From: an uncultured delta proteobacterium | Lineage (GTDB): Bacteria; Myxococcota_A; Polyangia; Polyangiales; Polyangiaceae | Length of the DNA: 64,000 bases | Direction of reading: 5' to 3' | Assembly: GCA_963731595.1 (NCBI GenBank) | Contig: CAVSWE010000003.1 | Coordinates: 44,948-108,947 of the forward strand | Shown here: piece by piece, positions 11,147-49,591 of the stretch | How positions within the stretch are numbered: the stretch's first letter is position 1 | Layout: every line of letters starts with the position of its first letter | Made by a program: the position numbers and the translations under genes | The notes under the pieces: model-generated | Told to the model about the DNA's origin: nothing | The model's database searches: none | Seen by the model: the letters and a program-made list of their open reading frames with translations, nothing else

Positions 11147-11158
11147 GGAATTGTCGCC

Positions 11159-11841: not shown

Positions 11842-11861
11842 CACGATGTGCATCGGCCACC

Positions 11862-17420: not shown

Positions 17421-18089
17421 AAACGCCGTCACCCATTATGTTCAAACCGCTGCTTGGTTTCGTACAACGATCTCGCTGGACCACCTCGTTTCACTACTGA
17501 CACGACAAGCAAGGTGCCGACGCCAAACGGATTAATGACGATCTTGTGGACGTATTTCCCTAATGGCGGCGCCGACCAGCACCAATGACGACTGCAAGTG
17601 CGTGGACCTACGATTAAGGGATTGAACTGGCTACGCTCCGGATGTCCAGCAAGGCTTCGCGATCCTGCTGGCAGATCCACTTCGTTCTGGTGGAAGACTC
17701 GATGAACTACTCGTTGCAACGTTTGTTTTTGCGACCTCTCCTGAGGGGGTGGTTTTCCCATGACGATCTTGGGCCAGAGATCTTCTACTCGAACCTGCTG
17801 GAAGACGAGGGATCTGTATTGGGATCTTGCGACGACGAAACTGAAAAATGAGTTGGTACAATCGGAATATCAACAGGTCGTATGGTGTGCTGCGAAAAGT
17901 GAGTAAGCCGTATACACACGAAAAGGCGGCGCCGCTCATGGCCGTGCTGAGTTTTCACAGAAACGCGCTCGGATCGCCGGTGGCGATTCTGACTCGCACA
18001 GCATTCTGCAACGGCTTCGACTTGCATTCGAAAGGCCGAACTGTCGAAAACACACGCGCACCACTCACGGATCTTCGCAAGCGCACGAG

Positions 18090-21613: not shown

Positions 21614-21717
21614 GTTGGACACGAGCGCGCCGCCTAGGGTCCTGCTACGCCAAGGGTCCAAGAGGCGTGCGCAGCACGTCGACCGGGAAGAAAACGCCGG
21701 CGTCGCGCGTCCGTAGG

Positions 21718-22560: not shown

Positions 22561-22588
22561 ACCGTCGCAAGGCGTCGGCGCCCGACGT

Positions 22589-23189: not shown

Positions 23190-24255
23190 TCACCCGCGCG
23201 GATCGAAGACGATTCGGCGACCGAGGCGGTGATGCGCCATGTCGTCCAGGATCTCGTTCACGCGCGACATCGGCGCGTGATCGACGAACGGCGCGAGCTG
23301 AATCGCGCCCGAGTCGATGAGCCGCAGCACCTCGCGGTACGCTTCGGGCGGGCAGCCCCAGCTCCCGTGGATCGTCGCGTCGAACGCCATCAAGTTCGAG
23401 AGACGGATCTCGACCGGCGCGGCGCAATAGCCGACTTGCACCATCGTCGCCGCGGGCCCGAGCAGCGTGAACGCGAGCGTTTGTCCCTGCGGGGTGCCGC
23501 TGCACTCGAAGATGCGCCAATGGAGCGAGGAAATTCCCCACTCGGCCGCGATGCGTTGAACCTCCTTGCGGACCTCCTTGGGCGCGCGGCCTTCGACGCA
23601 CACGGTGCGGTCGGCGCCGTGCGCCGCGATCGCGTCGAGCTTCGCGGCGCTCACGTCGAGAGCGATGACGCGCGCGCCGAGCGCACGCGCGATTTGAATC
23701 GCGTAGCCGCCGACGCCGCCCGCGCCGACGACGAACGCGAGGTCGCCCTTCGCGAGCGCCGCGCGGCGCGCCGCCTGGTACGCCGTCGAGACGGCGTCGG
23801 CGACGACCGACAGATTCCGCGGATCGACGCTCGGCGGAAGATCGTCGAGCGCGACGAGCGCCGCCGCCGGGACGAGCACGTGCGTCGCGAAGCCTCCGTC
23901 GATGTCGTTGCCCGGCATCTTCTGCTTCGGGCACGCGTTGCCGCGGCCGGCGCGGCAGAGCTCGCAGTCGCCGCACGGCATCACGGCGGGGACGAGCACG
24001 CGCTTGCCGACGAGCGACGCGTGCGCGGGCCCCGCCGCGACGACGCGTCCGACGATCTCGTGGCCGAGGATCAACGGGAGCGCGTGGCGCGGCGCGACCT
24101 CTCCGCTCGCGTACGCGAGATCGGTGTGGCAGAGGCCGCACGCCTCCACCTCGAGGAGCGCTTGCCCCGCGTCGGGCTCCGGCATCGGCAGAGTGCGTTT
24201 CTCGAGCGGTTTTCCCGCTGCCGTGAGCACGTAGGCTTGCATCGTTTTCGCCATG
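23190..24255 (-). CDS. Zn-dependent alcohol dehydrogenase (MDR family); candidate 6-hydroxycyclohex-1-ene-1-carbonyl-CoA dehydrogenase (Had-like)
   Basis: 'CGLCHTDL', 'GHEIVGRV', 'CGDCELCRAGRGNAC' structural-Zn motif, 'VVGAGGVGGYAIQIA' Rossmann. Last gene after bcrD in the same operon direction. Confidence 0.6.
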
Positions 24256-24259
24256 GTTT

Positions 24260-25132
24260 TCACCCGTGGGCCGAGGATTGGTTCTTTCGCTGGAGCTGGT
24301 CGTAGCGGTACGCGCCGAGCATCGCGGCGCCGAGCGCGCCGGCGAGCATGGCCTGCGGATGCATGCGCACCTCGAGCCTCGGGAGAGGCTTCTTGGATTT
24401 CGTCGACTCCTTCTCGAGGAGCTCGCGCAGGCTCGCGACCAGGCCGACGTCTTGACCGAGACCGCCGGTGACCGCGACGACGCCCTCGGCCCCGGCCGAG
24501 CGCAAGAGACGCAAGAGACGGCCCGCGATGCTCAAGTGGATGCCGCGCAGCACGTCGCCGGTGGCGAGGCCGCGCGCGACCATGTTGATCACGTCGGTCT
24601 CGGCGAGGACGGCGCAGACGCTCGAGACCTCTTCGAGCTGCTTGGACTCGAGCGAGATTTTGCCCACGTCCTCGAGCGGGACGCCGAGGTAGCGCGCGAT
24701 GTTCTCGAGGAACTGTCCGGTGCCGCTCGCGCACTGGCTGGTCATGCGGTGGCCGAGCACTTTCCCGCGCTCGTCCATGCGGATCGCGCGCGCGTGGAGG
24801 GCGCCGAGATCGAGCACGGCGCGCGCCTCGGGCGCGAGGAAGACGCGCGCCGCGCGCGTGCGTGGTCATTCCGTAGAAGTGCCCGGTCGCGAAGGAGACC
24901 GCGTCGACGTCGCCGGTGCTCGCGACGTAGCAGAGCTCGTCCGGCGCGACCTTGGCGTGCGCGCAGGCCTCGTCGAACGTCGCCTGGACCACGTCGAAGA
25001 CATTGCGGCGTCTGACGCGCTGGACCGCGGTCGCGAGCACCTCGGCGCGCTCGCCCGCGCGGCTCGCGGTGACGGCGACCTTGATGGCGCTGGAGCCTGC
25101 GTCGATTCCGGCTGAAATCAGGGGTTTCATGG
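24260..25132 (-). CDS. bcrD: Benzoyl-CoA reductase subunit D (BcrD/BadG; BadF/BadG/BcrA/BcrD ATPase), apparent frameshift near 24850
   Basis: N-terminus 'MKPLISAGIDAGSSAIKVAV' preceded by RBS AGGTGAGG. C-terminus 'ARVFLAPEARAVLDLGAL...QCASGTGQFLENIARYLG...VAVTGGLGQDVGL' is in a different frame from the N-terminus. The switch falls in a 'gcgcgcgcggcgcgcg' tract. Confidence 0.7.
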
Positions 25133-25134
25133 CC

Positions 25135-26462
25135 TCACCTCCGAGCGCGCGTCGCGCACGAACGCGGGGAGCTCGGGCAGCGCGCCCGCCGCGACGTCGT
25201 CGAGCGAGAAGAGCGCGGCGCCGAGCGCGCCCATGTAAATGGAGTCGGGGTGGATGTTGAGCTGGATGTCCGCGCCGTAGTTTTCGATCGACGAGCTCGC
25301 GGAGGACCTTGGTCGCCATCGCGTTGTTGCAGACGCCGCCCGTGAACGTGAGCTCGGTTCGCACGCCGCCGCTCCGCGCGAGGAGCGACATCGCCCGCAG
25401 CATGATCGCGCGGTGCAGACCCGCGAGGATGTCCTCGCGCTTCTGTCCGAGCGAGAGTCGCTCGCGGAGCTCGGCGCCGGCGAACACGGTGCACGTCGAG
25501 TTCACCTTGGTCGACTTGCGCGCCGTCAGCGCGAGCGGGCCGAGCTCGTGCAGGCCGAGGCCGAGCTCGTCGGCGATGTAGCCGAGGTAGCGCCCGCAGC
25601 CGGCCGCGCAGCGATCGTTCATCTGAAACGACGTGACGACGCCGTGCTCGTCGACCTGGATGGCCTTGGTGTCTTGGCCGCCGATGTCGAGGACCGTGCG
25701 CGTGCCCGGGAAGACGCGGTGCGCGCCGCGGCCGTGGCAGAGGATTTCGCTTCGGACCGCGTCCTTCGGGAAGGGGAGCGTCTGGCGTCCGTAGCCGGTC
25801 CCGACGACGGCAATCTCCTCGATGGGGTCGCGCGTCGCTTCGTCGATGGCGTGCGCGACGACGTCGGTCGAGCCCACGCGGCGCGCCGCGCGCCCGAGGA
25901 GATCGCGCGTGTCGCGCGGGCGCAGGCGCGTCTCGACCTCGAGGATCGCGCGGTCGTAGAGCGCGACGAGCGGCTCGAAGGCGACCTCGCCCGCTCGCGC
26001 GAGCGACTCCGCCTCGGCCACGAACGCGGCGCCCGCCAGATCGCGGAAGAAGTCGCTCCGCCGCGGGGCGCCCTCGACGAACGACGCTGGCGCGCTCGAC
26101 TCGATCGCGTCGATCACCTTCGTCGCCGCACGCTCGAGCGCCGCGCGGTCCGGTCTCGACGACTGCGCGAGGTTGTCCGCGATCGTGCGCCGCAGCTCGT
26201 CGAGGTCACCGACAAAAAGCTCGAGCCGAAACGCCTCGCGGAGCGGGACGAGGTAGGCCTTCGCGCCGCCGCGCTTGGCAAGCGCGCGCTCGAGCATGTC
26301 GAAGCGCGCCGACGTGTGCGCCTCGATGCGCGCGACCGCGCAGGCCACCTCGTAGTTGCTGCGGCTGTTGGTGATGCCCCGCCCGAGCGGCGCGCCCGAC
26401 TCGTCGAGCATGACCGCCTTCGTCGTGGTCGAGCCGAGGTCGATGCCGATGACGCACTTCAC
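25135..26462 (-). CDS. bcrA: Benzoyl-CoA reductase subunit A (BcrA/BadF ATPase), apparent frameshift near 25270
   Basis: GTG start overlaps the bcrB stop (GTGA). 'KCVIGIDLGSTTTKAVML...DIGGQDTKAIQV...CAAGCGRYLGYIA...FTGGVCNNAMATKVLRELV'. The true C-terminus 'IENYGADIQLNIHPDSIYMGALGAALFSL...*' lies in another frame (switch at a T4 run) and its TGA overlaps the bcrD ATG. Confidence 0.7.
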
Positions 26463-27806
26463 GCCGGCTCTCCTTCTTTCAGGACGGGCAGGCTGCGCTT
26501 TCCCTCGGGACGCGCGGGGAGCGGCGCGCCGGGGCCGAGCTTCTTTCGCGCGTCGAGCATCTGGAGGAAGCTCTGAACGCGGTTCTCGATGTTGGACTTT
26601 CCGAAGTACCGCGGGTCGACGAGGTCCGACTCGATGAATCCGCCGGGCACGCCGGTGCGCTCCTCGAGCTTGCGCAGCATGAGGAGCTGCCCGACGCTGA
26701 ACGAGTTGCACGACTTGACGCTGTTGATGAGGAAGCCGTCGGCCTCGTACGTCTCGACGTACCGCTCGAGGAGCTCGAGCCGCGTCGGCAGACCGAGGTT
26801 CGTGTAACAACCGAGGCAGTAGTCGGCGAGGCTGTCGAGGCCCTGGGCCGGGTCGTGACGAAAGCCGGTGTCGTAGAGGCCGCCGACGCGCGTGTACGTG
26901 CTCGACACGACGGTCGCGCCCTCGCGGCTGAACATGCGCCAAAAATCGTGGAAGCGAGGTCCAGTTCGGCGGGCCCTCGACGACGAGGCGGTACTTCTCG
27001 CGCGTCTGCTCGCCGTCGGGCGTCATGGGACCGCGGCCCTCGCGGACGCGCTGCTCCACCTCCTCGCGGAGCTCGCGGTAATAGGTCACCGCGTCCTCGC
27101 TGCCGCGGAACGACGAGAAGATCGGCCCGACGTAATAGACGCCGCCGAAGTACCCGTCGATCGGCGCGGGCCGGTGGCGCGCCGACTCCCACACCGCGAC
27201 GAGATCTTCCTCCGCGCGGGCGGAGAGCGCGAGGCGCCGCGCGAGCTCGTCGCGATCGAGCTTCTTGCCGGCGAGCTTCTCGAGCGCCGGGATGACGTCG
27301 CGTTCGAGCTGCGCGGTCACGTACTCGCGCATCTCGGGCGTGATGCGCCCCTCGGTCTGGTAGGGCACGTGGAGCATCACGACGGGGCAGTCGTATTCCT
27401 GCTTCAGGATCTCGAACCACTTCATGAACGTGAAGCAGCCCGTGTACGAGAGGAGCAGGAGATCCGGCGGCGGGAGCTTGGTGCCGGTCGGGCCGATGTT
27501 GCCGCTCTTGAGCATGCCGACGTCGCACTTGACGTAGGTGCACACGTCCTCCGAGTGACCGGCCTTCTCGGCCTCGGCGATGTAGCCGGCCGAGCGCTTC
27601 CGCATGCCGCTCTGGAGGGCGTTGATCTCCGGCAGCACCGGGAGGAGATCGAGCGCCCCGAGCAGCTCGGTGACGTTGCCGGGCACGAACGTGTAGACGA
27701 CCTTGCGGCCGTCCCCCTTCGCGCGCGCGAGCTTCTCGAAGTGCTCGGCAATCATCCGCTTCTGCGTCTGTTGGCTCTTGTCTTTCGACTCGGTCTCGCT
27801 CATCAC
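26459..27806 (-). CDS. bcrB: Benzoyl-CoA reductase subunit B (BcrB/BadE; HgdB-like), apparent frameshift near 26945
   Basis: N-terminus 'KVVYTFVPGNVTELLGALDLLPVLPEINALQ...' (HgdB-like). C-terminal 158 aa ('EGATVVSSTYTRVGGLYDTG...INSVKSCNSFSVGQLLMLRKL') is in another frame. The switch is next to 'gccaaaaatcg'. Confidence 0.7.
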
Positions 27807-28978
27807 GCCGCTCCCCAGAGCTTCACGCCGTCGCTGAACGCGCCGGCCTGCTCCCGAATCACGTTGAACTGGCCCATGTTCTCGGAGAACTTGAAGCTCG
27901 TGTGCGGCACGCCCGCCTTGCGCAGTGCGGCCTCGAGCATCGGCTGATCGAGCAGCGCCGGATCGCAGAACGACGCGGCCGCGAAGATGACGCCGTCGGC
28001 GCCGCTCGCGCGCACGCGGCGGAGCAGCGCGGCGCCCTTGACGAGATCGCCGATGTACCGCGACGCCGTGTCCACGCCCTTCTCGAGGTACGCGCGCGCG
28101 AGCGCGTCCAGCGGCTCCTCGCCCTCGGCAATCTCAATCGGGCCGTCAATCATGCGCATGCCGAGCTGGAAGTCGTCGTCGACGATGTCGCAGCCGCTCT
28201 TCTCGAGGGCGCGAATCAGCTCGAACGGCGGCTGCTCGCAGAAGCTCCCGACGAGGACGACGCGGACGTTGTCGATGGGGCGCGCGGCGCGCTCCTTCGC
28301 CGCCGCGACGAACTCGCGGACGAGGGTCGTGTGCGCGTGCGTCTCGAGGGCAGCGCCCGCGCGGACAATCGCGTACGCCTCGCTCGCCTTCACGCGCCAC
28401 GGCTCTTGGCGGCGGAGCGCGTCGAGCTCGGCGAGCGCCTCGCGACGCTCGTTCTCCCGCGCGACCGCCTCGCGGAGCGCGCGCGCTTCGATCGGCCTCG
28501 CGCCGCGCTCCTCGAGCTCGCGCGCGATTCGCTTCATCTCGAGGACGTAGAACTTCCCGCCGATGCCGGCCTCGAAGTTCTGCGGCAAGTCGAGGTAGGT
28601 CGCGTACGCCTTCGGAAACAGCATGCGCCACATGCCGCCGAGGTTTCGGATCACGTCGCAGATCGACGGAAAGAGCACGCCGTCGAGCACGTCGAGAGCG
28701 CCGGCGAGCGCGAGCTCGACCGTGCTGCGCGGGATGTGACAGATGTACGACTGGAAGTAGGCGTCGCCGCGGATGATGTCGATCGAGTCGCCGCCGCCGA
28801 AGAGCGCGACCGGGAGACACCCGATCGCCTCGAGCAGCGGTCGCGGCGCGTAGATCGGCATGTGGGCGATCGCGAGGCCGCCGGGGTGCGACTCTTTCCA
28901 CCGGGCGACGGTGGAGAGCGAGCGGTCATCGATGATCGCGCGTGCGCGGTCGAGCAAAGCCGAGGCCGGATCGGTCAT
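27803..28978 (-). CDS. bcrC: Benzoyl-CoA reductase subunit C (BcrC/BadD; HgdA-like)
   Basis: 392 aa. 'AHMPIYAPRPLLEAIGCLPVALFGG...FPSICDVIRNLGGMW...FAAASFCDP'. ATG overlaps the tetR stop (ATGA). Confidence 0.7.
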   Translation of the reverse strand: MTDPASALLDRARAIIDDRSLSTVARWKESHPGGLAIAHMPIYAPRPLLEAIGCLPVALFGGGDSIDIIRGDAYFQSYICHIPRSTVELALAGALDVLDGVLFPSICDVIRNLGGMWRMLFPKAYATYLDLPQNFEAGIGGKFYVLEMKRIARELEERGARPIEARALREAVARENERREALAELDALRRQEPWRVKASEAYAIVRAGAALETHAHTTLVREFVAAAKERAARPIDNVRVVLVGSFCEQPPFELIRALEKSGCDIVDDDFQLGMRMIDGPIEIAEGEEPLDALARAYLEKGVDTASRYIGDLVKGAALLRRVRASGADGVIFAAASFCDPALLDQPMLEAALRKAGVPHTSFKFSENMGQFNVIREQAGAFSDGVKLWGAA

Positions 28979-29633
28979 GGCGAATCTCCGTCGAGCTGGA
29001 GGAGGGGCGTGCGGCGAAGCGGGAGCGCCACCTCGGGGATGGGCGCAGAGCCGGCGGCGCCGGCGACGGTCATCTCGACGATCGTGCGCGCGAGCTCGCG
29101 CGGCGAGCCGTGGCGCGCGGGGTCGTACCAGCCGAAGATCCAATTGAGCATTCCGAACATGCAGTAGGCGCGGCGCTCGCTCTCGATCGCCGACGGCTCG
29201 GCGCCGCGCTCGGCGACGACCGCGGCCAGCAGCGCTTCGCCGACCGCGAAGTACCGCTGTTTGAGCGCGCGAATGATCGCGCGGCGCTTTCGCGGGAGCG
29301 CCGCGGCCTCTTGCACGAGCACGCGCATGACGTCCGGTTGCTCGACGAAATGGTCGACGTGGTTCGCGACGAAACGGTGAAGCCGCTCGACCGGCTCGCC
29401 CGGCGTGGCGAGCGCGGCCTCGGCGCTCGAGAGGAGGTGCTGGAAGGCGCGGAGCTGGAGCTCGAAGAGGATGTCCTCCTTCGAGCCGAAGAGGTGATAG
29501 AAGCTCGCGAGCCCGCGGCCGGTGACCTTCGCGAGGTCGCGCATGCTCATGCCGTGGTAGCCGTGCTGGGCCATCGCGGTGGCGGCGCGCTCGAGCACCT
29601 GCACGCGGCTCTCGTCGCGCGAGGCCGGGCGGC
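28975..29633 (-). CDS. TetR-family transcriptional regulator embedded in the bcr operon
   Basis: 'MAQHGYHGMSMRDLAKVTGRGLASFYHLFGSKEDILFEL' (TetR_N HTH). Sits between the dch-like gene and bcrC on the same strand. Confidence 0.7.
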
Positions 29634-29636
29634 TCA

Positions 29637-30409
29637 CGAGCCCGTCCACTTCGGCGCCCGCTTCGCGAGGAACGCGTCGATGCCCTCGTTGCCGTCGTGG
29701 CTCGGGAGGAGCCTCTCGACGTACGCGCGCTCGGCCTCGGCGAGCGGACCTTCGAGGCTCGCCGAGAGACCCGAGCCCGCGCGCGCGACGCGCGTCGCCT
29801 CGCGCAGCGAGAAGGGCGAGAGCGGCGCGAGCGTCTCGGCGAACCACGTCGCGAGCCACGCGTCGGGATCGCTCCCCGGCGGAAGGACGTGCGCGACGAA
29901 GCCGCAGGCGCGCGCGCCCGCCGCGTCGAGCGGCGCGCCCGTGAGGAGCATGCGCTCGGCGAGCGCGCCGCCGAGCCGCCGAGGCCCGAGGACCGCGAGC
30001 ACGGGCGGAAAGACGCCGAGCTTGATCTCCGGGCACGCGAAGCTCGCGTCCTCGGTCGCGAAGACGAAGTGCGACGCGAGCGCGAGCTCGAACGCGCCGC
30101 CGAGGCAGCGCCCCTCGACGAGGCACGCGACTGGAATCGGAAACCTCGCGACGCGCCGGACGAGCGCGTGAAACGCCGCGAGCATCGCGGGCGCGGACTC
30201 GCGGCGATGCTCGGGCACCGACGCGCCGAAGGAGAAATTCCCTCCCGCGCCTCGAAGGACGACGAGCCGGAGGTCCGGGTCGCTCGCGTGCGCGTCCAGC
30301 GACGCGCCAATCTCGCGCATCATCTCCATCGAGAGGACGTTCGCGCGTGGCTCGTCGAGGACCACGCGCAAGAGCGCGCCGTCGGCGAGAACCTCGGTCC
30401 GAGTCGTGC
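29637..30409 (-). CDS. Enoyl-CoA hydratase/isomerase (crotonase) family; candidate dienoyl-CoA hydratase (Dch-like)
   Basis: RBS GGGGAG then GTG. 'VVLRGAGGNFSFGASV...CLVEGRCLGGAFELALASHFVFATEDASFACPEIKLGVFPP', the crotonase oxyanion-hole region. Confidence 0.65.
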
Positions 30410-30415
30410 CCACAA

Positions 30416-31533
30416 TCAGCTCCCCTTGCGACGGCGCGCGCGCGCCGACGGCGGCAAGACCTCCTCGACGAGCGCGTCGTCGAACAGCGCGCCCTCCGCG
30501 AGGCGCTTGCGCAGCAGCACGAAATCGATCTCGCGCTCGTTCTTGTCGCCGTAGTGGAACGCCGCGAAGCCCGCGGCCGCCTCGGTCGTCATGTTGAGCG
30601 ACAGCCAGCTGCGGCTCGTCTCGGCGTTCTGGAACCAGTGCTCGAGCTTCTTCTTGCGGAGGCTCTCGAGCGTCTTCCGCGTGCAGTCGGGGAAGGTGTA
30701 GAGGAGCTTGGTCGCGAGGCGCTCGACCGCCTCGTCGAGGAGAGAGAGGTCGATGGTGCACGCCTTCGCCTCGGCGCGCCCGACCTCGGCGGCCGCGCCG
30801 GTCTTCCACTCGCCGTAGACGATGCGGCCCATCTCGTCGGCGTAGCGGTCGGTGATCACGGTCGGGTTCGCGACGAACGCGCCGCTCGCGTCCCTGTGCA
30901 CCGGCACGACGTCGGTGAGGAGGCCCAGGCGCATCGCCTTCTGCGCGCTCCACGGCTCGCAGAGCGAGAGCGACTCGGCGGCGTGCGAGACGCCGACGAA
31001 GAGGTGCAGGAAGTCGGTCGCGCCGCCATCGGGCGCCGAGCCGTGCACCGGACCGGCCTGACCGAAGCGCGCGTGATCGCCGGCGACGGAGAAGTCGCAG
31101 GCCATCCCGATCTCTTGCCCGCCGCCGATGCGCATCCCGTTGACGCGGCAGATGACCGGCTTGTCGCAGAGCAGCAGCGCCGTGACCATGTCGTTGAAGA
31201 GGCGCATGTACTGCAGGTATTCGAGCGGCCGGCCGGCGTAGTAGCTCGCGTACTCCGCGGTGTTTCCGCCCGTGCAGAAGGCTTTGCTGCCGGTGCCGGT
31301 GAAGACGACGCACACGGCGCGTCGATCGGTGCTCGCGCGGCGAAGCGCGAGGATCACGTCCTTCACCGCGGCGGTCGTGTAGGAGTTCAGCTGCGCCTCG
31401 TTGTCGAGGGCGATGACGATCTGGTGGAGGCCTTCGACCGGCTTGCCGTCGCGACCGCGGATCGGGCGCTGCTCGTAACGGATGTTTCGGAGCTCGAACT
31501 GCGGGACGAGGTCGTGGTTCTTGAGGTCGGTCA
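30416..31533 (-). CDS. 6-oxocyclohex-1-ene-1-carbonyl-CoA hydrolase (Oah/BamA-like ring-cleaving crotonase)
   Basis: RBS GGAGGAG. About 372 aa crotonase-family protein: 'VCVVFTGTGSKAFCTGGNTAEY...VICRVNGMRIGGGQEIGMACDFSVAGDHARFGQAGP' plus a long C-terminal extension typical of Oah/BamA. Confidence 0.65.
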
Positions 31534-31644
31534 TGGCTCTCCTCCGAGGGTCTCGAGGAGATCCGTACCGGACGAACGTTCGTCCCCAGTTGATTTGGAT
31601 CAAGTGGCCGGATCGGCGGTCGTGACATGACCGGAGGAGACGCG

Positions 31645-32540
31645 ATGTTCGACTGGAACGAGCCTGATCCGGCCTCGTGGGCGCGCTCGCCGCGGGTCGT
31701 CGACGAGACGCTGCGCGACGGGCTGCAGAGCGCGTCGACGCGGGATCCGCCGCTCGATCGCAAGCTCGCCATCCTCCACGCGATGGCCGCGATCGGCGTC
31801 GACTTCGCGTCGCTCGGGCTGCCGGCCGCCGGGCCGCGCGCGGCGCACGACGTCCTCGAGCTCGCGCGGGAGTGCGCGGCCGCGCGCTTGGCGCCGAGGC
31901 CCACGGCGGCGGCGCGGACGACCGAGGCCGACGTGCGCGTCATCGCCGACATCAGCCAGACCGCGGGCGTCGCGATCGACGTGTACGCGTTCATCGGGTG
32001 CTCGCCGATCCGCCGGTACGTCGAGGGATGGTCGATCGAGTGGCTGCTCGATCACGTGCGCTCGAGCGCGGACGTCGCGCGCCGCGCGGGGCTCACCTAT
32101 TGCCTCGTGATGGAGGACACGACGCGCACGCCGCCGGACGTCCTTCGCGAAGTGTTCGCGACGGCGCTCGACGCGGGCGCGAAGCGGGTCTGTCTGTGCG
32201 ACACGGTCGGGCACGCCGATCCGCGCGGCGTCGCGAGCCTCGTCGGCTTCGCGCGGCGGACGCTCGCCTCGCTCGGCGCCCCCGAGACCGAAATCGATTG
32301 GCACGGGCACAACGACCGCGGGCTCGCGCTCGGCAACGCGCTCGCCGCCGCGCGCGCGGGCGCGACGGGCGTGCACGGCGCCGCGGGCGGAATCGGCGAG
32401 CGCACGGGAAACGTGCCCACCGAGCAGCTCGTCGCGCAGCTCGCGGCGATGGGCGCGCGGTCGAGCCCGTCCGCGTCCGCGCTCGAGGCGTACCGCGAGA
32501 CGGCCGTGCCCGACTCGGCGCGCGCCGCGCCGCGTGAAGA
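31645..32540 (+). CDS. DRE-TIM metallolyase (HMGL-like / isopropylmalate-synthase-like pyruvate carboxyltransferase domain)
   Basis: 'VVDETLRDGLQS' and 'HGHNDRGLALGNALAAARAGATGVHGAAGGIGERTGNVPTEQLV'. There is no stop codon between this domain and the following 2Fe-2S domain in the same frame; the 3' end given is an estimate. Confidence 0.5.
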
Positions 32541-32553
32541 GACCGCGGTCCGC

Positions 32554-33072
32554 GTGCGCCTGCGCGTGAACGGCGAGTCCCTCGAGATTCACGCCAAGCC
32601 GAGCCGCACGCTCCTCGAAGTGCTCCGCTACGACCTGCGCCTCGTCGCGACCAAACAAGGCTGCGACCAGGGCGAGTGCGGCGCCTGCACGGTCCTCCTC
32701 GACGGCGAGCCGGTGCTCGCGTGCTTGACGCTTGCGGCGGCGTGCGGCGGCCGCGAGATCGTCACGGCCGAATCGATCGCGTCGGACGACGCGCTGCTCG
32801 AGGCGTTCGACTGCACCGGCGCGGGCCAGTGCGGCTTCTGCACTTCTGGCATGCTCCTCTCGTCGAAGGCGCTCCTCGCGCGCGAGCCGCGCCCGTCGCG
32901 CGCGCGCATCCGTCAGGCGATCAGCGGGAACTTGTGCCGATGCACCGGCTACGGGCCGATCGTCGAGGCCGTCGAGATCGCCGCCGGGACGCGCGAGGCG
33001 CCGTTCGATTCGCCGCGGCTCGGACACGAGTGCGCGCCGAAGCCGCTGCCGCCGTACGCGGGGACGAAGTGA
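32554..33072 (+). CDS. [2Fe-2S] small subunit of xanthine-dehydrogenase-family enzyme (HcrC/CoxS-like); start uncertain
   Basis: 'LRVNGESLEI...ATKQGCDQGECGACTVLLDGEPVLAC...CGFCTSGM...GNLCRCTGYGPIV', both 2Fe-2S cysteine clusters. In-frame continuation of the upstream ORF; an internal GTG was chosen as start. Confidence 0.6.
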   Translation: MRLRVNGESLEIHAKPSRTLLEVLRYDLRLVATKQGCDQGECGACTVLLDGEPVLACLTLAAACGGREIVTAESIASDDALLEAFDCTGAGQCGFCTSGMLLSSKALLAREPRPSRARIRQAISGNLCRCTGYGPIVEAVEIAAGTREAPFDSPRLGHECAPKPLPPYAGTK

Positions 33073-35351
33073 GCGCCGAAGGCCTCGTCGGACGGCGCGG
33101 ACGCCGCGGAGACCTCGCGCGCCGCGTTCGCGGCGAGGTCGCCTTCACCGACGATCTCGAGCTGCCCCGCATGCTGCACGCGAAGCTCGTGCGCTCGCCG
33201 CACCCGCACGCTCGCATCGTGCGCGTCGACGCGTCGCGCGCGCTCGCGCTGCCCGGCGCGGTCGCGGTCCTCACGGGCGACGCGATGCCGGCGCGCTTCG
33301 GCGTCATCCCGTGGACGCCCGACGAGCACGCGCTCGCGATCGGCGAGGCGCGCTTCGTGGGCGACGCGGTCGCGGCGGTCGCCGCGCGCGACGAGCGAAC
33401 CGCGTTCGAAGCCGCCGCGCTCGTCCGAGTCGAATACGAGGTGCTGCCCGCCGCGACGACGCTCGACGCGGCGATCCGCTCGCCGGAAATCGGCCTCGGA
33501 CGCGACCGCAAAGACAACGTCAGCAAGGCCGTGAGCCTCGCGTTCGGCGACGTCGACGAGGCGTTCGAGGTCGCCGACGTCACGATCGAAGGCGAGTATT
33601 TCTTCGACGGGAGCGCCCACGCGCCCATCGAGCCGCACTGCGCGATCGCGCGCTACGACGCGAGCGGTCTGCTGACGCTCTGGTCGACGACGCAAGTTCC
33701 CCATTACGTGCACCGCGAGCTCTCGCGCGTCCTCGGCGTCTCGCCGGCGCGCATCCGCGTCGTGCAGCCGCCGGTGGGGGGCGCGTTCGGGGGAAAGAGC
33801 GAGCCCTTCGGTCACGAGATGGTCGTCGCGAAGCTCGCGATGACGACGGGGCGCCCGGTGAAGATCCTCCTCACGCGCGAAGAGGAGTTCTACGTCCACC
33901 GCGGCCGGCACCCGATGCGCATGCGAATGCGCGCCGGCGCGAGCCGCGACGGAAAGCTCCTCGCGCTCGACGCACGCACCGACATCGACGGCGGCGCGTA
34001 CTCGTCGTTCGGTCTCGTGACGACGTACTACTCGGGGCAGCTCCTCACGATCCCGACGGTGCCCGCGACGTACCGGTTCTCGTCGACGCGCTACTTCACG
34101 AACAAGCCGCCCTGCGGGCCGAAGCGCGGACACGGCAGCGTGCAGCCGCGCTTCGCGCTCGAGATCACGCTCGACAAAATCGCGACGGCGCTCGGACTCG
34201 ACCCGATCGAGCTACGCCGTCGAAACTCGGCGGAGTCGAGCTCGACGACCGTGAACGGAATGACCGTCACGTCGAACGGGCACCTCGAGTGTCTCGCGCG
34301 CGTCGAGGCCGCCTCGGGCTGGAAGGAGCGCCGCGGAAAGCTGGGATTCGGTCGCGGCCTCGGCGTCGCCTCGTCGGCGTACATCTCCGGGACGAACCAC
34401 CCGATCTACCCGAACGAGATGCCGCAGAGCGCCGTGCAGCTCAAGGTCGACCGCTCCGGCGTCGTCACGGTCTTCAACGGCGCGAGCGAGATCGGGCAAG
34501 GCACCGACGCGATGCTGGCGACGATCGTCGCCGAGGAGCTCGGGCTCGACCTCGGCTGCGTGCGCGTCGTCTCGGCGGACACCGATTTGTGCCCGGTCGA
34601 TCTCGGCGCGTACTCGTCGCGCGGGACGTTCATGAACGGAAACGCGTGCCTCTCGGCGGCCAGGCAAATCAAGGAGAAGCTCGTCGAGGCAGTGGCGGCG
34701 TCGTTCGAGGTCGCGCCGCGCGACGTGTTCGTGTCGCGCGGCTTCTTGTGCGTGCGCGGAGACGAATCGCGCGCGGTGCCGGTCGACGAAGCGATTCGCC
34801 TCGCGGAGGCGAAGCACGGCACGCTCGGCGCCGTCGGCTGGTACAAGTCGGCGCCCGACCTCGGCGGAAGATACCGCGGCGGCACGATCGGCGCGTCGCC
34901 GGCGTACTCGTTCACGGCCCACGTGGCGGAGGTGGCGGTCGACGTGGAGACGGGCGTCGTGGAGGTCGTCCGGGTGTGGTGCGCGCACGACTGCGGCAAG
35001 GCGATCTGTCCGACGCAGGTCCTCGGGCAGATCGAGGGGAGCGTCTACATGGGCGTCGCCGAGGCGCTCTTCGAGGGGCACACGGTCGACGCGAACGGGA
35101 TGCACCACGGCCCCAACTTGCTCGACTACCGCATCCCGACGAGCCTCGACGTGCCGGCGATCGACGCGATGATCGTCGAGTCGATCGACCCGGGCGGCCC
35201 GTACGGCGCGAAGGAGGCGGGCGAAGGTCCGCTTCACTCGAGCATCCCCGCCGTCGTCAACGCGATCTTCGACGCGATCGGCGTCCGGATCGACACGCTC
35301 CCGGTCGCGCCGGAGCGCGTCTTGCGCGCGCTACGCGAAAGGGGGACGTGA
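33069..35351 (+). CDS. Molybdopterin-binding large subunit of xanthine-dehydrogenase family (HcrA-like, candidate 4-hydroxybenzoyl-CoA reductase alpha)
   Basis: 760 aa. 'RVVQPPVGGAFGGK', 'GASEIGQGTDAMLATIVAEELG', 'ESIDPGGPYGAKEAGEGP'. GTG overlaps the upstream TGA. Confidence 0.75.
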   Translation: MSAEGLVGRRGRRGDLARRVRGEVAFTDDLELPRMLHAKLVRSPHPHARIVRVDASRALALPGAVAVLTGDAMPARFGVIPWTPDEHALAIGEARFVGDAVAAVAARDERTAFEAAALVRVEYEVLPAATTLDAAIRSPEIGLGRDRKDNVSKAVSLAFGDVDEAFEVADVTIEGEYFFDGSAHAPIEPHCAIARYDASGLLTLWSTTQVPHYVHRELSRVLGVSPARIRVVQPPVGGAFGGKSEPFGHEMVVAKLAMTTGRPVKILLTREEEFYVHRGRHPMRMRMRAGASRDGKLLALDARTDIDGGAYSSFGLVTTYYSGQLLTIPTVPATYRFSSTRYFTNKPPCGPKRGHGSVQPRFALEITLDKIATALGLDPIELRRRNSAESSSTTVNGMTVTSNGHLECLARVEAASGWKERRGKLGFGRGLGVASSAYISGTNHPIYPNEMPQSAVQLKVDRSGVVTVFNGASEIGQGTDAMLATIVAEELGLDLGCVRVVSADTDLCPVDLGAYSSRGTFMNGNACLSAARQIKEKLVEAVAASFEVAPRDVFVSRGFLCVRGDESRAVPVDEAIRLAEAKHGTLGAVGWYKSAPDLGGRYRGGTIGASPAYSFTAHVAEVAVDVETGVVEVVRVWCAHDCGKAICPTQVLGQIEGSVYMGVAEALFEGHTVDANGMHHGPNLLDYRIPTSLDVPAIDAMIVESIDPGGPYGAKEAGEGPLHSSIPAVVNAIFDAIGVRIDTLPVAPERVLRALRERGT

Positions 35352-35352
35352 C

Positions 35353-36357
35353 GTGCTCCCGCTGCCCGCCTTCGACTTTCACGCGCCGCGGTCGATCGCC
35401 GAAGCGCTCGCGCTGCTCGAGCGGTGGGGCGGCGAGGCGGCGCTCGTCGCCGGCGGCACCGATCTGCTCCCGAACATGAAGCGCGGCCTCGCGTCGCCGC
35501 GGCACCTCGTGTCGCTGCGCGACGTCACCGGGCTCTCGAGCATTCGCGTCGACGGGGCGTGGCTGCACGTCGGCGCCACGACGTCGCTCGGCGCGATCGA
35601 CGCGAGCGCCCTGGTGCGCGAGCGCGCCGCGGCCCTCGCGGAGGCGGCGGGCGCGGTGGGCGGACCGCAGCATCGGACGATGGGCACGCTCGGCGGCAAC
35701 CTCTGCCTCGACACGCGATGCCGCTTCTACGATCAATCGCACTTCTGGCGGAGCGCGCTCGGCTTTTGCTTGAAGAAGGACGGAACGGCGTGTCACGTCG
35801 TGCCGGGCGGGCGGCGATGCGTGGCCGCGGCCTCGAACGACACGGCGACAGCCGCGATCGCCCTCGACGCGACGATCGAGCTCGCGAGCCCGCGCGGACC
35901 GCGGAGCGTCGCGGCGCGCGACTTCTACACGACCGACGGAGCCGCCAACACCGTTCGCGCGCCGGACGAGATCGTCGTGGCGCTCCGCGTGCCGCTCGAG
36001 GCGCGGGCGAGCGCTTACGAGAAGCTCCGGCGCCGCGGCGCGATCGACTTCCCGCTGCTCTCGGTCGCCGCCGCCGCCGTGGTGCGGGAGGATCGCGTGG
36101 CATCGCTCGAGATCGTCGTCTCCGCGCTCGCCGCGCGCCCGCGCCGAGTCGGCGTCGCGGGCGCGCTCGGCCTCGCGGCCGCCGCAGTGCCGATCGAAGC
36201 CCTCGCGCAGAGCGCGAGACGAGAGTGCACGCCGCTGTCGAACGTCGACGGAGACTCGGCGTGGCGCAAAGAAATGGTCGGCGTGCTCGTCCTGCGCGCG
36301 CTCGCACGCGTGGGGCTCGGCGCGGCAGGTAGCCGGAGGGAGGTAGAACCACGATGA
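35353..36357 (+). CDS. FAD-binding subunit (CoxM/HcrB-like) with cysteine-rich insertion loop (putative extra [4Fe-4S])
   Basis: 'ALVAGGTDLLPNMK' FAD motif. Insertion 'GNLCLDTRCRFYDQSHFWRSALGFCLKKDGTACHVVPGGRRCVAA' carries 5 Cys, as in 4-hydroxybenzoyl-CoA reductase beta. Confidence 0.7.
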   Translation: MLPLPAFDFHAPRSIAEALALLERWGGEAALVAGGTDLLPNMKRGLASPRHLVSLRDVTGLSSIRVDGAWLHVGATTSLGAIDASALVRERAAALAEAAGAVGGPQHRTMGTLGGNLCLDTRCRFYDQSHFWRSALGFCLKKDGTACHVVPGGRRCVAAASNDTATAAIALDATIELASPRGPRSVAARDFYTTDGAANTVRAPDEIVVALRVPLEARASAYEKLRRRGAIDFPLLSVAAAAVVREDRVASLEIVVSALAARPRRVGVAGALGLAAAAVPIEALAQSARRECTPLSNVDGDSAWRKEMVGVLVLRALARVGLGAAGSRREVEPR

Positions 36358-37076: not shown

Positions 37077-37079
37077 CGC

Positions 37080-45175: not shown

Positions 45176-45328
45176 GCCGAGCGAGCGCCCCGCCGGGCGT
45201 CAACCCGTCACGGCGCGCCAGCGCGAGGTCATCTCGAAGGCGGCGCGCAGCGCGCGCAGCGTCGCGGCGGTCGTCACGAGCTCGCGCTCGCCGAGCCCGC
45301 GCGACACCGCGCCGCCGCGTGGCTCCTC

Positions 45329-45580
45329 ATGCTTCGCGCGGCGCGCCTCCTCGACGACGGCGAGCTCGCCGTCTCGGAGACGAGCATGGCGAAGCTCTTC
45401 GCGACCGACGCGTGCGGGCGCGTCGTCGACCGCGCCGTGCAGGTGCACGGCGGCTACGGCCACTCGCGCGAGTACGCCGTCGAGCGGCTCTACCGCGACG
45501 CGCGCGTCACGCGAATCTACCAGGGCACGAACGAAATTCAGCGCATCGTCGTCGCGCGGGAGCTTCTCCGCGCGCCCTGA
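45329..45580 (+). pseudogene. Acyl-CoA dehydrogenase C-terminal remnant
   Basis: 'SMAKLFATDACGRVVDRAVQVHGGYGHSREYAVERLYRDARVTRIYQGTNEIQRIVVAREL' is only the last about 85 aa of an ACAD. No upstream ACAD body. Confidence 0.5.
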
Positions 45581-47855: not shown

Positions 47856-49591
47856 ATGGATAACGACGCCATCGCGCGCACCTTCCTCGAGCTCGCCGAC
47901 GTGCTCGAGCTGCTCGGCGAGGTGCCGTTCAAAGTGCGGGCGTTTCGCGCGGCCGCGCGCGCCATCGAGGGCATGGGCGAGCCGATCGCGACGAAGGTCG
48001 AGGCCGGCACGCTCGGAAAAGTCGCGGGCATCGGCGACGGCGTCGTCCGCCGCGTCCACGAGCTCGTGAAGACCGGCAAGCTCGCCGACCTCGAGGAGAA
48101 GAAACAGAAGCTTCCCCCGGTCTCATGGACCTGATGAACGTCCCCGGGATGGGCGTGAAGACGGCGCAGCAAGTCTGGAAAGAGCGCAGCATCACGACCA
48201 TCGACGCGCTCGAGGTCGCCGCCAAAGCCGGCAAGCTGCGCGATCTGCCGCGCTTCGGGCAGAAGCGCGAGGAGAAGCTCCTCGGCGCGATCGCCGCGTG
48301 GCGAAAGCGCGCGTCGGCGCCGAAGCGTTGGCCGATGGCCGAGGCGCTCGAGCTCGCCGAGGCGCTCGTGAGGAAGGTCCGCGGCGTCCCCGGCGTGCAG
48401 CGCTGCGAGTTCGCCGGCAGCCTGCGACGACGGCGCGAGACCGTCGGCGACCTCGACGTCCTCGTCGCCGCCGACGCGAAGGACGCGCCCGGCATCATGA
48501 ACGCGTTCGCGTCGATGCCCGAGGTCGCCGAGGTGCTCGCGCACGGCGAGACCAAGACGAGCGTCGTCCTGAAGAATGGGATTCAATCCGATCTGCGCGT
48601 CGTGCCGCGCGCGTCGTTCGGCGCCGCGATGCAATACTTCACCGGCTCGAAGGACCACAACGTCGCGATGCGCACGCTCGCGGTGAAGAAGAAGCTGAAG
48701 GTGAGCGAGTACGGCGTCTTCGACAAAGAAGACAAGTCGATCGCCGGCGAGACCGAGGAGGGCGTCTACGAGGCGATCGGTCTCCGCTGGATGCCGCCCG
48801 AAATCAGGGAAAATCGGGGCGAAATCGAGGCGGCGAAGGCGGGCACGCTGCCGGTGCTCGTCGAGCTCACGGACCTCGTCGGCGATCTCCACATGCACAC
48901 CAAGGAGAGCGACGGGCGCGCGACGATCGAGGAGATGGCGCTCGCGGCGCACTCCGCTGGCCGAAAGTACATCGCCATCACCGATCACTCGGTGTCGCTC
49001 GGCATCGCGAACGGCCTCACGGCCGAGCGGCTGCGCGACCACAAGAAGCGCATCCGCGAGGTCGACGAGAAGCTGAAGGGAACGATCCGCGTCCTCGCGG
49101 GCATCGAGACCGACATCCTCGGCGACGGCTCGCTGGATCTCGAGGACGAGCTCGCCGGGCTCGACTGGGTCGTCGGCAGCGTGCACTCGAAGCTCGGTAT
49201 GCCGCGCGAGGAAATGACCAAGCGGGTCGTCCGCGCCATCGAGTCGGGCCGCATCGACGCGCTCGGTCACCCCTTCGGGCGCATGCTCGGCCAGCGCGAG
49301 GGAAGCGATCTCGATCTCGAGGCGGTGCTGCGCGCGCTCGCGAAGACCGGCGTCGCGATCGAGCTGAACTCGTCGCCGCTGCGCCTCGACGTGCCCGAGA
49401 ACGGGCTGCGCATGGCGCGCGAGATGGGCGTGCCGGTCGTCATCGACTCCGACGCCCACTCGACGCGCGAGCTCTCGTACCTGAAATACGGCGTCGGCAT
49501 CGCGCGGCGCGGCTGGCTCGGGAAAGAGCACGTGCTCACCGCGCAGCCGCTCGAGAAGATCCGCGAGCACCGCGCCGCGCGCGCTTCCTAG
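47856..49591 (+). CDS. polX: Family X DNA polymerase with C-terminal PHP domain (PolX), apparent 1-nt frameshift near 48118
   Basis: N-terminal 8-kDa/HhH 'NDAIARTFLELADVLELLGEVPFKVRAFRAAARAIE'. 'FAGSLRRRRETVGDLDVLV' (pol-beta nucleotidyltransferase). PHP 'DLHMHT...ITDHS'. The frame switches inside 'cttcccccggtctc'; the expected sequence is KLPPGLMDL. Confidence 0.75.

What the first reader, a model, noticed from the sequence alone, without database searches (positions are those of the whole stretch)
23190..31533. Complete class I benzoyl-CoA reductase locus (oah-dch-tetR-bcrCBAD-had) in a >70% GC genome, with bcrB, bcrA and bcrD each frameshifted
Gene content and order (bcrC-B-A-D with oah, dch and had) match the ATP-dependent Thauera-type anaerobic benzoyl-CoA pathway. 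All three ATPase/reductase subunits B, A and D show a reading-frame switch: bcrB near 26945, bcrA near 25270, bcrD near 24850. Each has clearly homologous sequence on both sides of the switch. bcrC, had, dch, oah and tetR are intact. Either the ring-reducing enzyme is being lost while the downstream beta-oxidation-like enzymes are retained, or these are localised sequence errors.
Basis: seen in the sequence. Interest (0 to 1): 0.65.

Follow-up and report, generated by a model that had tools for sequence, protein, structure and literature searches.

The report
Benzoyl-CoA reductase operon with frameshift artefacts
This is an ordinary eight-gene operon for oxygen-free breakdown of benzoate in a soil myxobacterium-type genome, and the three single-base frame breaks in its key enzyme are most likely assembly errors, because a 98.6%-identical environmental copy lacks exactly those three bases.

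Summary
On the minus strand, 31534..23190, lies oah-dch-tetR-bcrC-bcrB-bcrA-bcrD-had. All gene junctions except bcrD/had overlap. bcrB, bcrA and bcrD each switch frame once, at 26954, 25285-25287 and 24845. Each switch is one extra base.

With that base removed, every protein matches its Bcr-type (Thauera/Rhodopseudomonas) NCBIfam model end to end in a single stretch.

Two Illumina soil-metagenome contigs from the same species (98.4-98.6% nucleotide identity) cover 32063..23448. They differ in length from the window by exactly those three bases and encode intact BcrA (444 aa) and BcrD (289 aa). More than 80 relatives are also single-frame.

dN/dS of the three genes (0.04-0.14) is no higher than that of their intact neighbours (0.12-0.28), and there are no other lesions.

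Two unrelated genes elsewhere in the window are also split by one-base indels: PolX and the LigD polymerase gene. Each insertion turns a single C or G into CG or GC.

The best reading (about 0.78) is an intact, functional operon carrying consensus or assembly indel errors. A real but very recent strain-specific inactivation remains possible (about 0.18).

Low interest: this is a new member of a well-known enzyme system that is already widely annotated in Myxococcota MAGs.

The parts
30416..31534 (-). oah, 6-oxocyclohex-1-ene-1-carbonyl-CoA hydrolase; intact
   Evidence: TIGR03200 512 bits (cut-off 464), profile 1-360/360. 0 gaps against conspecific L082.
29634..30419 (-). dch, cyclohexa-1,5-diene-1-carbonyl-CoA hydratase-like crotonase; intact; TTGA overlap with oah
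   Evidence: Best hit TIGR03189, 195 bits, below the cut-off of 292.5, profile 8-249/251.
28975..29637 (-). tetR-family regulator inside the operon; intact; GTGA overlap with dch, ATGA overlap with bcrC
   Evidence: TetR-family NCBIfam hits. The same gene sits at the same place in L081 and L082 (TetR_N, TetR_C_24).
27803..28978 (-). bcrC, benzoyl-CoA reductase subunit C (HGD-D family); intact
   Evidence: TIGR02263 422.7 bits (cut-off 421.15), profile 4-379/380. 97% identical to P0121.
26459..27803 (-). bcrB, subunit B (HGD-D family); reads through only if one base at 26954 is removed
   Evidence: The rejoined 447 aa gives TIGR02260 650 bits (cut-off 486) in one stretch, 4-413/413. 92% identical to the intact P0001.
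26954..26954 (-). extra base in bcrB: ACCTCG[C]TTCCAC
   Evidence: Absent from conspecific L083 and from L081. The codon-position GC switch falls at 26952/26953.
25127..26462 (-). bcrA, ATPase subunit A (BcrAD_BadFG family, long N-terminal insert); reads through only if one base at 25285-25287 is removed
   Evidence: The rejoined 444 aa gives TIGR02259 517 bits (cut-off 578) in one stretch, 1-431/432. The intact conspecific BcrA is also 444 aa.
25285..25287 (-). extra base in bcrA: GTCGA[TCG]AAAAC, where relatives have GATCAA (L083) or GACGAA (L084)
   Evidence: The codon-position GC switch falls at 25287/25288.
24260..25130 (-). bcrD, ATPase subunit D (BcrAD_BadFG family); reads through only if one base at 24845 is removed
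   Evidence: The rejoined 289 aa gives TIGR02261 302 bits (cut-off 313) in one stretch, 2-262/262. The intact conspecific BcrD is also 289 aa and is 100% identical over the junction segment.
24845..24845 (-). extra base in bcrD: GGCGCG[C]GTCTTC
   Evidence: Absent from L083 and L081. The codon-position GC switch falls at 24845/24846.
23190..24254 (-). had, 6-hydroxycyclohex-1-ene-1-carbonyl-CoA dehydrogenase; intact
   Evidence: TIGR03201 417 bits (cut-off 339), profile 2-349/349.
31627..36357 (+). divergently transcribed 4-hydroxybenzoyl-CoA-reductase-like molybdenum hydroxylase genes (HMGL-like::2Fe-2S fusion, MoCo subunit, FAD subunit); intact; context only
   Evidence: Best NCBIfam hits are TIGR03193/03194/03195 at 147/813/272 bits, all below their cut-offs. 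Pfam domains have full coverage.
47856..49591 (+). PolX gene split by a 1-nt deletion in the run CCCCCGG at about 48115-48119; same class of lesion outside the bcr operon
   Evidence: The rejoined 578 aa aligns 1-569 to Thermus PolX 3au2 in one stretch.
53402..54701 (-). LigD primase-polymerase gene split by a 1-nt insertion at about 53903, CGCGTG[C]GATCCG; same class of lesion outside the bcr operon
   Evidence: The rejoined protein hits PF21686 1-253/254 in one stretch across the junction.

Best explanation
The locus is an intact, ordinary Bcr-type class I (ATP-dependent, ferredoxin-driven) benzoyl-CoA reductase operon with the three downstream ring-processing enzymes, in a soil member of Polyangiaceae/Myxococcota. 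BcrA and BcrD would hydrolyse ATP to push low-potential electrons into BcrB/BcrC, which reduce benzoyl-CoA to the cyclic dienoyl-CoA. Dch, Had and Oah would then hydrate, oxidise and open the ring (established knowledge of the pathway; not tested here).

The three frame switches are single extra bases introduced when the sequence was produced. They are consensus or assembly indel errors of the kind common in long-read or mixed-strain assemblies, not biological lesions.

Shown: the extra bases, their absence in a conspecific, the lack of decay, and similar indels in unrelated genes. Inferred: that their origin is technical. A plausible route is that a C/G polymorphism between co-assembled strains was written into the consensus as both bases.
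For: 1. L083 is an Illumina/MEGAHIT soil-metagenome contig 98.65% identical over window 27287..23448. It differs in length by exactly three 1-nt gaps, at 26954, 25285 and 24845, and encodes BcrA (444 aa) and BcrD (289 aa) intact. L082, from the same sample, is 98.36% identical over 32063..27296 with no gaps.

2. All relatives examined have single-frame bcrB, bcrA and bcrD. Alignment to L081 (85.6% identity over 6.8 kb) shows the same three gaps as the only uncompensated gaps whose length is not a multiple of 3.

3. With one base removed, each protein matches its equivalog model in one uninterrupted stretch and has no internal stop.

4. dN/dS against the conspecific is 0.04-0.135 for bcrB, 0.116 for bcrA and 0.042 for bcrD. 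The intact neighbours give 0.12-0.28. The stretches downstream of the shifts, which would be untranslated, show 8 synonymous and 5 non-synonymous changes. Neutrality predicts about 1:3, which gives a binomial p of about 0.006 (my calculation).

5. The 4-nt start/stop overlaps GTGA and ATGA that couple bcrB-bcrA and bcrA-bcrD are preserved in the shifted frames.

6. At least two more one-base frameshifts lie in unrelated genes of the same window, PolX and the LigD polymerase gene. That makes 5 of roughly 45 genes in 46 kb. Elevated counts of such 'pseudogenes' are a documented signature of assembly error (PMC11017572).

7. Each of the four insertions turns one C or G into CG or GC. At the bcrA and bcrD sites both the C allele and the G allele exist among relatives. 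The PolX lesion is a deletion in a C5 run.
Against: No reads or quality values are available, so a technical origin is inferred and not shown.

Three of the five indels fall within 2.1 kb (p = 0.03-0.07 under uniform placement). Relaxed selection after a first real hit could also produce this.

The insertions are not in homopolymers, which is the most familiar long-read error context.

The CG/GC signature is only weakly unlikely by chance (0.46 per site, 0.04 for four sites).

The pN/pS ratio downstream of the shifts (0.21) is somewhat higher than upstream (0.06), though the counts are tiny.

Cultured Polyangiaceae are aerobes (my own knowledge), so an oxygen-sensitive reductase could plausibly be dispensable.
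Confidence: 0.78

Rival explanations
1. The three insertions are real. This particular strain has very recently lost the ATP-dependent ring reductase (one hit followed by neutral hits in the other subunits), while dch, had, oah, tetR and bcrC have not yet been hit.
For: The shifts are in the sequence as given. Three of the five indels in the window cluster in the three adjacent subunit genes (p = 0.03-0.07). Any one shift would abolish the enzyme; for example, both predicted cluster cysteines of BcrD lie downstream of its shift. A mobile-element-rich island lies nearby.
Against: The conspecific at 98.65% identity is intact. dN/dS is no higher than in intact neighbours, and the regions downstream of the shifts are still under constraint. 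There are no stops, deletions or larger lesions. All three events are +1 insertions, although bacterial pseudogenes usually show a deletion bias (my own knowledge). The same kind of one-base lesion also hits PolX and LigD, so a real origin would require an improbable burst of about 11% freshly broken genes.
Confidence: 0.18
2. The shifts are real but are bypassed by programmed +1 ribosomal frameshifting or transcriptional slippage, so full-length subunits are still made.
For: All three shifts are +1 and in the same direction.
Against: The sites share no slippery or stimulatory motif (TCG C TTC, GAT CG AA, GCG C GTC). None lies in a homopolymer run. The extra base is absent from the conspecific and from all other relatives, so it is not a conserved recoding signal.
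Confidence: 0.02
3. The reader mis-framed the genes, or this lineage naturally has split subunit genes.
For: High GC creates long spurious open frames, for example the 1538-aa ORF.
Against: Homology-free codon-position GC segmentation and homology agree on the switch points to the nucleotide. Relatives, including a conspecific, have unsplit genes of exactly the rejoined lengths.
Confidence: 0.01

Closest known systems
Bcr-type class I benzoyl-CoA reductase: Thauera aromatica BcrCBAD, Rhodopseudomonas palustris BadDEFG
   Same: Four subunits: two of the HGD-D family (C, B) and two BcrAD_BadFG ATPases (A, D). The gene order is C-B-A-D. BcrA carries the long N-terminal insert (444 aa, against 269 aa for MbdQ). 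There are end-to-end matches to TIGR02263/02260/02259/02261. Dch, Had and Oah equivalogs accompany it.
   Different: The host is a Polyangiaceae/Myxococcota-type genome. A tetR gene sits between dch and bcrC. No ferredoxin or KorAB genes are in the window, although the relative L081 has POR/KorAB-like genes after had. BcrA, BcrD and Dch score a little (Dch clearly) below the curated cut-offs.
Intact orthologous operons in Myxococcota/Polyangiaceae MAGs and soil metagenomes (L082/L083 conspecific; L081; L001, L003, L012)
   Same: The synteny is the same: oah-dch-tetR-bcrC-B-A-D-had. Nucleotide identity is 98.4-98.6% (L082/L083) and 85.6% (L081). Protein identity is 75-92%.
   Different: They lack the three extra bases, and all genes read through.
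bzd/mbd-type class I reductases: Azoarcus BzdNOPQ, 3-methylbenzoyl-CoA reductase MbdONQP (PDB 9gai, 9g87, 8s02)
   Same: Same protein superfamilies and the same four-subunit logic. These are the closest solved structures.
   Different: The bzd-type equivalog models score only 78-129 bits against cut-offs of 380-454. The ATPase subunit lacks the BcrA insert.
2-hydroxyacyl-CoA dehydratases with their ATP-dependent activators (HgdAB/HgdC, HadBC/HadI; PDB 1hux, 3o3m, 4eht)
   Same: Homologous HGD-D and activator-ATPase folds. Both cluster-ligand cysteine motifs are present in BcrA and BcrD.
   Different: The scores are far lower than for the Bcr models (157-168 bits against 423-650). The gene context is Dch/Had/Oah, not a dehydratase pathway.

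Membership tests
Class I benzoyl-CoA reductase, Bcr (Thauera/Rhodopseudomonas) type | Four separate subunit genes: two of the HGD-D family (BcrC, BcrB) and two BcrAD_BadFG ATPases (BcrA, BcrD) | tested here: met
   (NCBIfam). The order is C-B-A-D with overlapping start and stop codons.
Class I benzoyl-CoA reductase, Bcr (Thauera/Rhodopseudomonas) type | Each subunit reaches the curated equivalog cut-off (TIGR02263, 02260, 02259, 02261) | tested here: inconclusive
   BcrB scores 650 against 486 and BcrC 422.7 against 421.15: met. BcrA scores 517 against 578 and BcrD 302 against 313: just below. All are the best hit, full length and in one stretch.
Class I benzoyl-CoA reductase, Bcr (Thauera/Rhodopseudomonas) type | Uninterrupted reading frames for all four subunits | tested here: not met
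   In the sequence as given, bcrB, bcrA and bcrD each need one base removed. The conspecific L083 meets this feature, and the interruption is judged most likely technical.
Class I benzoyl-CoA reductase, Bcr (Thauera/Rhodopseudomonas) type | Two cysteines per ATPase subunit that bridge the [4Fe-4S] cluster (the HgdC-type motifs C-A-x-G-x-G and x-x-C-x-V-x-A) | tested here: met
   BcrA has NDRCAAGCG and NSTCTVFAGAE, aligned to MbdQ. BcrD has TSQCASGTG and SSVCAVLAETD (sequence). Ligand identity rests on knowledge of HgdC and was not tested.
Class I benzoyl-CoA reductase, Bcr (Thauera/Rhodopseudomonas) type | Dedicated low-potential ferredoxin and its reductase (Fdx, KorAB) encoded with the enzyme | tested here: not met
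   No C-x2-C-x2-C-x3-C-P motif occurs in any frame of the window. The relative L081 has POR/KorAB-like genes downstream of had. These may lie elsewhere in the genome.
Class I benzoyl-CoA reductase, Bcr (Thauera/Rhodopseudomonas) type | ATP-dependent two-electron reduction of benzoyl-CoA | not testable with these tools
   This needs an enzyme assay or a growth test.
Class I benzoyl-CoA reductase, bzd (Azoarcus) type | Subunits reach the BzdN/O/P/Q equivalog cut-offs | tested here: not met
   TIGR03190, 03191 and 03192 score 78, 79 and 93-129 bits against cut-offs of 454, 449 and 380.
Benzoyl-CoA lower pathway, Thauera variant (Dch, Had, Oah) | Equivalog-level hydratase, dehydrogenase and ring hydrolase next to the reductase | tested here: met
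   Had scores 417 against 339 and Oah 512 against 464: met. Dch scores 195 against 292.5: best hit but below the cut-off.
Genuine pseudogene (decaying gene) | Relaxed selection or additional lesions relative to close relatives | tested here: not met
   dN/dS is 0.04-0.14, no higher than in intact neighbours, with no stops and no other indels.

The most novel reading that the evidence does not exclude
The three extra bases, and the PolX and LigD indels, are real. The window would then capture a soil Polyangiaceae strain within about 1% divergence of its intact conspecific that has just lost the ATP-dependent ring reductase by three independent +1 insertions, while keeping the rest of the anaerobic benzoate pathway. 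It would have lost two DNA-repair genes at the same time, which would hint at an insertion-prone mutational state.
Probability: 0.15. Interest if true: 0.35.

Novelty: new member of a known kind. Interest (0 to 1): 0.12.

Why it matters
The main value is as a caution. In this window, five genes that look like pseudogenes are most likely products of the assembly. Taking them at face value would wrongly score this organism as unable to reduce benzoyl-CoA.

Biologically the locus adds one more example of something databases already annotate in many MAGs: soil Myxococcota/Polyangiaceae carry a complete-looking Bcr-type anaerobic benzoate pathway next to a 4-hydroxybenzoyl-CoA-reductase-like enzyme, an Fe-S repair protein and an Fnr/Crp regulator. 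That is of some ecological interest for a group usually regarded as aerobic, but it is not new.

Tried and rejected
- **Exact-sequence look-ups.** BcrC, Oah, Had and the cupin next to ligD found no record. The source assembly could not be identified, and no conspecific copy of the ligD or polX region was obtained.
- **Metagenome pattern scans.** Two scans across the polX and ligD junctions, allowing either allele, found nothing.
- **Genome-collection scan.** The conspecific contigs came instead from protein searches with BcrC and with a chimeric query made of three junction-spanning segments.
- **Fused giant protein.** Rejected. The 1538-aa ORF is low-complexity off-frame translation between the real segments.
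- **Programmed frameshifting.** Rejected. There is no shared motif, and the extra base is absent in relatives.
- **Shared methylation or error motif.** GATC occurs at only 2 of the 4 insertion sites, and nothing is consistent across them.
- **Regions 21.6-22.6 kb and 43.3-44.9 kb.** Pfam scans gave no hits, so whether these hold further broken genes is unknown.
- **Ferredoxin motif scan of the window.** Negative.
Full report
**What is in the sequence**

The region 23190..31534 is read on the minus strand. Translation and ORF listing give eight genes:
- oah, 31534..30416
- dch, 30419..29634
- a tetR-family regulator, 29637..28975
- bcrC, 28978..27803
- bcrB, 27803..26459
- bcrA, 26462..25127
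- bcrD, 25130..24260
- had, 24254..23190

Successive genes overlap: TTGA, GTGA, ATGA, one base between bcrC and bcrB, then GTGA and ATGA. Only bcrD and had are separated, by a 5-nt gap. Local GC is 0.68-0.74.

The single 1538-aa ORF 23190..27806 is not a fusion protein. Real bcrB, bcrA, bcrD and had segments in one frame are joined by arginine/proline-rich off-frame translation.

**The three frame switches are real features of the given sequence**

Three-frame translation shows bcrB passing from frame 2 to frame 1 at PPNWTS|FHDFWRMF. bcrA does so at RELV(D)|ENYGADI and bcrD at HARGA|VFLAPEA.

I built a six-state model that uses only codon-position GC and no homology. It places the switches at 26952/26953, 25287/25288 and 24845/24846.

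All three switches correspond to one extra base. The contexts are ACCTCG[C]TTCCAC, GTCGA[TCG]AAAAC and GGCGCG[C]GTCTTC.

**What the genes are**

With one base removed, each protein matches its NCBIfam equivalog in one uninterrupted stretch:

| Protein | Model | Bits | Cut-off |
|---|---|---|---|
| BcrB | TIGR02260 | 650 | 486 |
| BcrC | TIGR02263 | 422.7 | 421.15 |
| BcrA | TIGR02259 | 517 | 578 |
| BcrD | TIGR02261 | 302 | 313 |
| Had | TIGR03201 | 417 | 339 |
| Oah | TIGR03200 | 512 | 464 |
| Dch | TIGR03189 | 195 | 292.5 |

The bzd-type models score only 78-129 bits.

The closest solved structures are the 3-methylbenzoyl-CoA reductase MbdONQP and BzdO, followed by the 2-hydroxyacyl-CoA dehydratases and their activators. 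Both cluster-cysteine motifs are present in BcrA and BcrD.

No ferredoxin motif occurs anywhere in the window. 'Complete' therefore applies to the reductase subunits and the three downstream enzymes, not to the electron-donor system.

**Relatives**

A genome-collection scan with the rejoined BcrA returned 80 loci. The nearest are Myxococcales/Polyangiaceae MAGs at 70-78% BcrA identity. In all of them bcrB, bcrA and bcrD align to the rejoined proteins as single-frame matches, with no length difference at the junctions.

The best BcrB hit is P0001, 92% identical. It lies on a JGI contig (L081) with the same synteny, dch-tetR-bcrC-B-A-D-had, followed by POR/KorAB-like genes. Alignment of the window to L081 gives 85.6% identity over 6.8 kb. 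The only uncompensated gaps whose length is not a multiple of three are 1-nt insertions in the window at 26954, 25287 and 24845.

**The decisive comparison**

A BcrC search found P0121, 97% identical. A search with a chimeric query made of three junction-spanning segments found P0243 and P0246, 99-100% identical. These proteins lie on two MEGAHIT contigs of one Illumina soil metagenome (ENA ERZ924426, run SRR5487326).
- L082 equals window 32063..27296 at 98.36% identity with no gap.
- L083 equals window 27287..23448 at 98.65% identity with exactly three gaps, namely the three extra bases.

In L083, BcrA is 444 aa and BcrD is 289 aa, exactly the rejoined lengths. A third contig (L084, 92.9% identity) also lacks the bcrA insertion. 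An organism of the same species therefore carries the intact operon.

**No sign of decay**

I computed Nei-Gojobori dN/dS against the conspecific, with the three bases removed.

| Gene | dN/dS |
|---|---|
| bcrB | 0.04 and 0.135 |
| bcrA | 0.116 |
| bcrD | 0.042 |
| oah | 0.14 |
| dch | 0.28 |
| tetR | 0.12 |
| bcrC | 0.21 |
| had | 0.12 |

dS is about 0.04 throughout, and there are no internal stops.

The 410 codons downstream of the shifts would be untranslated if the shifts were real. They show 8 synonymous and 5 non-synonymous differences (pN/pS 0.21), against 20.5 and 3.5 upstream (0.06). Neutral evolution predicts about three non-synonymous changes per synonymous one. The downstream count departs from that with a binomial p of about 0.006 (my calculation). 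The shifts are therefore either extremely recent or not biological.

**The same lesion occurs outside the operon**

The codon-position model flagged one more place where the coding signal leaves a frame long before its stop. This is a LigD primase-polymerase gene at about 53903, with a +1 insertion in CGCGTG[C]GATCCG. The rejoined protein matches PF21686 at 1-253/254 in one stretch.

Pfam annotation of the rest of the window showed PolX split between an HHH_8 fragment (47856..48134) and the remainder (48125..49591). The cause is a 1-nt deletion in the run CCCCCGG. The rejoined 578-aa protein aligns 1-569 to Thermus PolX 3au2 without a gap at the junction.

The other genes with Pfam matches in the 18-64 kb part have full-length domain coverage, apart from an acyl-CoA dehydrogenase remnant at 45176..45577. 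That gives five one-base frameshifts in about 46 kb, or roughly 11% of genes. An excess of frameshift 'pseudogenes' between near-identical genomes is a documented consequence of platform, assembler and coverage (PMC11017572).

**A possible route to the artefact (inference)**

Each of the four insertions converts a single C or G of the relatives into CG or GC. At the bcrA site the relatives carry GAT CAA or GAC GAA, and the window reads GATCGAA. At the bcrD site they carry GCG GTC or GCG CTC, and the window reads GCGCGTC. This is what a consensus would look like if a C/G difference between co-assembled strains were written as both bases.

The signature is only weakly improbable by chance: 0.46 per site and 0.04 for four sites. 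The PolX lesion is a classical homopolymer deletion.

**What speaks for a real loss**

Three of the five indels fall within 2.1 kb (p = 0.03-0.07). Each one would abolish the enzyme. Cultured relatives are aerobes (my own knowledge). No reads are available, and I could not obtain a conspecific copy of the polX or ligD sites. I therefore leave about 0.18 for a very recent, strain-specific inactivation and about 0.02 for recoding. Recoding lacks any shared motif and is not conserved.

**Context**

- Divergently from oah lie an HMGL-like::2Fe-2S fusion, a MoCo subunit and an FAD subunit. Their best matches are the three 4-hydroxybenzoyl-CoA reductase subunits, all below cut-off. They are followed by an Fe-S repair di-iron protein and a Crp/Fnr regulator.
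- A MobA-like nucleotidyltransferase follows had.
- The first 18 kb is a lower-GC island with IS66, IS3 and IS630 elements and a truncated serine recombinase.

**Verdict**

The locus is a new member of a well-known system that is already widely annotated in Myxococcota MAGs. The feature that made it look interesting is most likely technical, so interest is low.

Noticed in passing
window 47856-49591 (+), junction about 48115-48119: The PolX (family X DNA polymerase with PHP domain) gene is split by a 1-nt deletion in the run CCCCCGG. The rejoined 578 aa aligns end to end to Thermus PolX 3au2.
   Followed up: yes
window 53402-54701 (-), junction about 53903: The LigD primase-polymerase gene is split by a 1-nt insertion (CGCGTG[C]GATCCG). 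A separate ATP-dependent DNA ligase gene (about 51.8-52.9 kb, + strand) and a cupin gene (52882-53361) nearby are intact.
   Followed up: partly
window 31627-36357 (+): Three genes are transcribed divergently from oah: an unusual fusion of an HMGL-like (aldolase/synthase) domain to the 2Fe-2S small subunit, a MoCo large subunit and an FAD subunit. Their best NCBIfam hits are 4-hydroxybenzoyl-CoA reductase gamma, alpha and beta, all below the curated cut-offs.
   Followed up: partly
window 36354-37742 (+) and 22589-23185 (-): An Fe-S cluster repair di-iron protein (RIC/ScdA-like) and a Crp/Fnr-type regulator follow the Hcr-like genes. A MobA-like NTP transferase (possibly molybdenum-cofactor maturation) follows had.
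   Followed up: no
window 45176-45577 (+): Only the C-terminal two-thirds of an acyl-CoA dehydrogenase C-terminal domain is present (profile 56-150/150). This is a gene remnant, next to an Imm1 immunity-protein ORF (44729-45175) and a GFA-family gene.
   Followed up: no
window 1-18300: A lower-GC (0.55-0.68) mobile-element island. It holds an IS66 transposase (1639-3132) and a large serine recombinase lacking its N-terminal resolvase domain (3052-4779). That gene is abutted by an IS3 element (orfA 5551-5862, orfB 4682-5554). Also present are IS630-like HTH (12474-12965) and DDE (11862-12437) parts in one frame separated by a stop, a DUF2779 gene, and about 5 kb of ORFs (6.5-11.7 kb) with no Pfam match.
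   Followed up: partly
window 18090-21613 (+): A Hen1-like methyltransferase followed by a Pnkp kinase-phosphatase-ligase. This is the bacterial Pnkp/Hen1 RNA repair pair, and both genes are full length.
   Followed up: no
window 37745-43481 (-): A lipid or secondary-metabolite-like set of genes: B12-binding radical SAM, acyl-CoA dehydrogenase, acyl carrier protein, NAD-dependent epimerase/reductase and an AMP-binding (fatty-acyl-AMP-ligase-like) enzyme.
   Followed up: no
window 55791-63845 (-): An 8.1-kb gene in a single frame with GH94 supersandwich and catalytic domains and a glucoamylase-like domain (cyclic beta-1,2-glucan synthase-like). It carries no frameshift despite its length.
   Followed up: no
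window 21587-22613 and 43264-44888: Two stretches of 1.0 and 1.6 kb with high GC but no clear codon-position signal. No ORF in them has a Pfam match. They could be non-coding, lineage-specific genes, or genes broken too often to recognise.
   Followed up: partly
window 26954, 25285-25287, 24845, about 53903: All four 1-nt insertions turn a single C or G of the relatives into CG or GC. At two of the sites both the C allele and the G allele occur among relatives. This suggests a merged two-strain consensus rather than random insertion (chance 0.04).
   Followed up: partly
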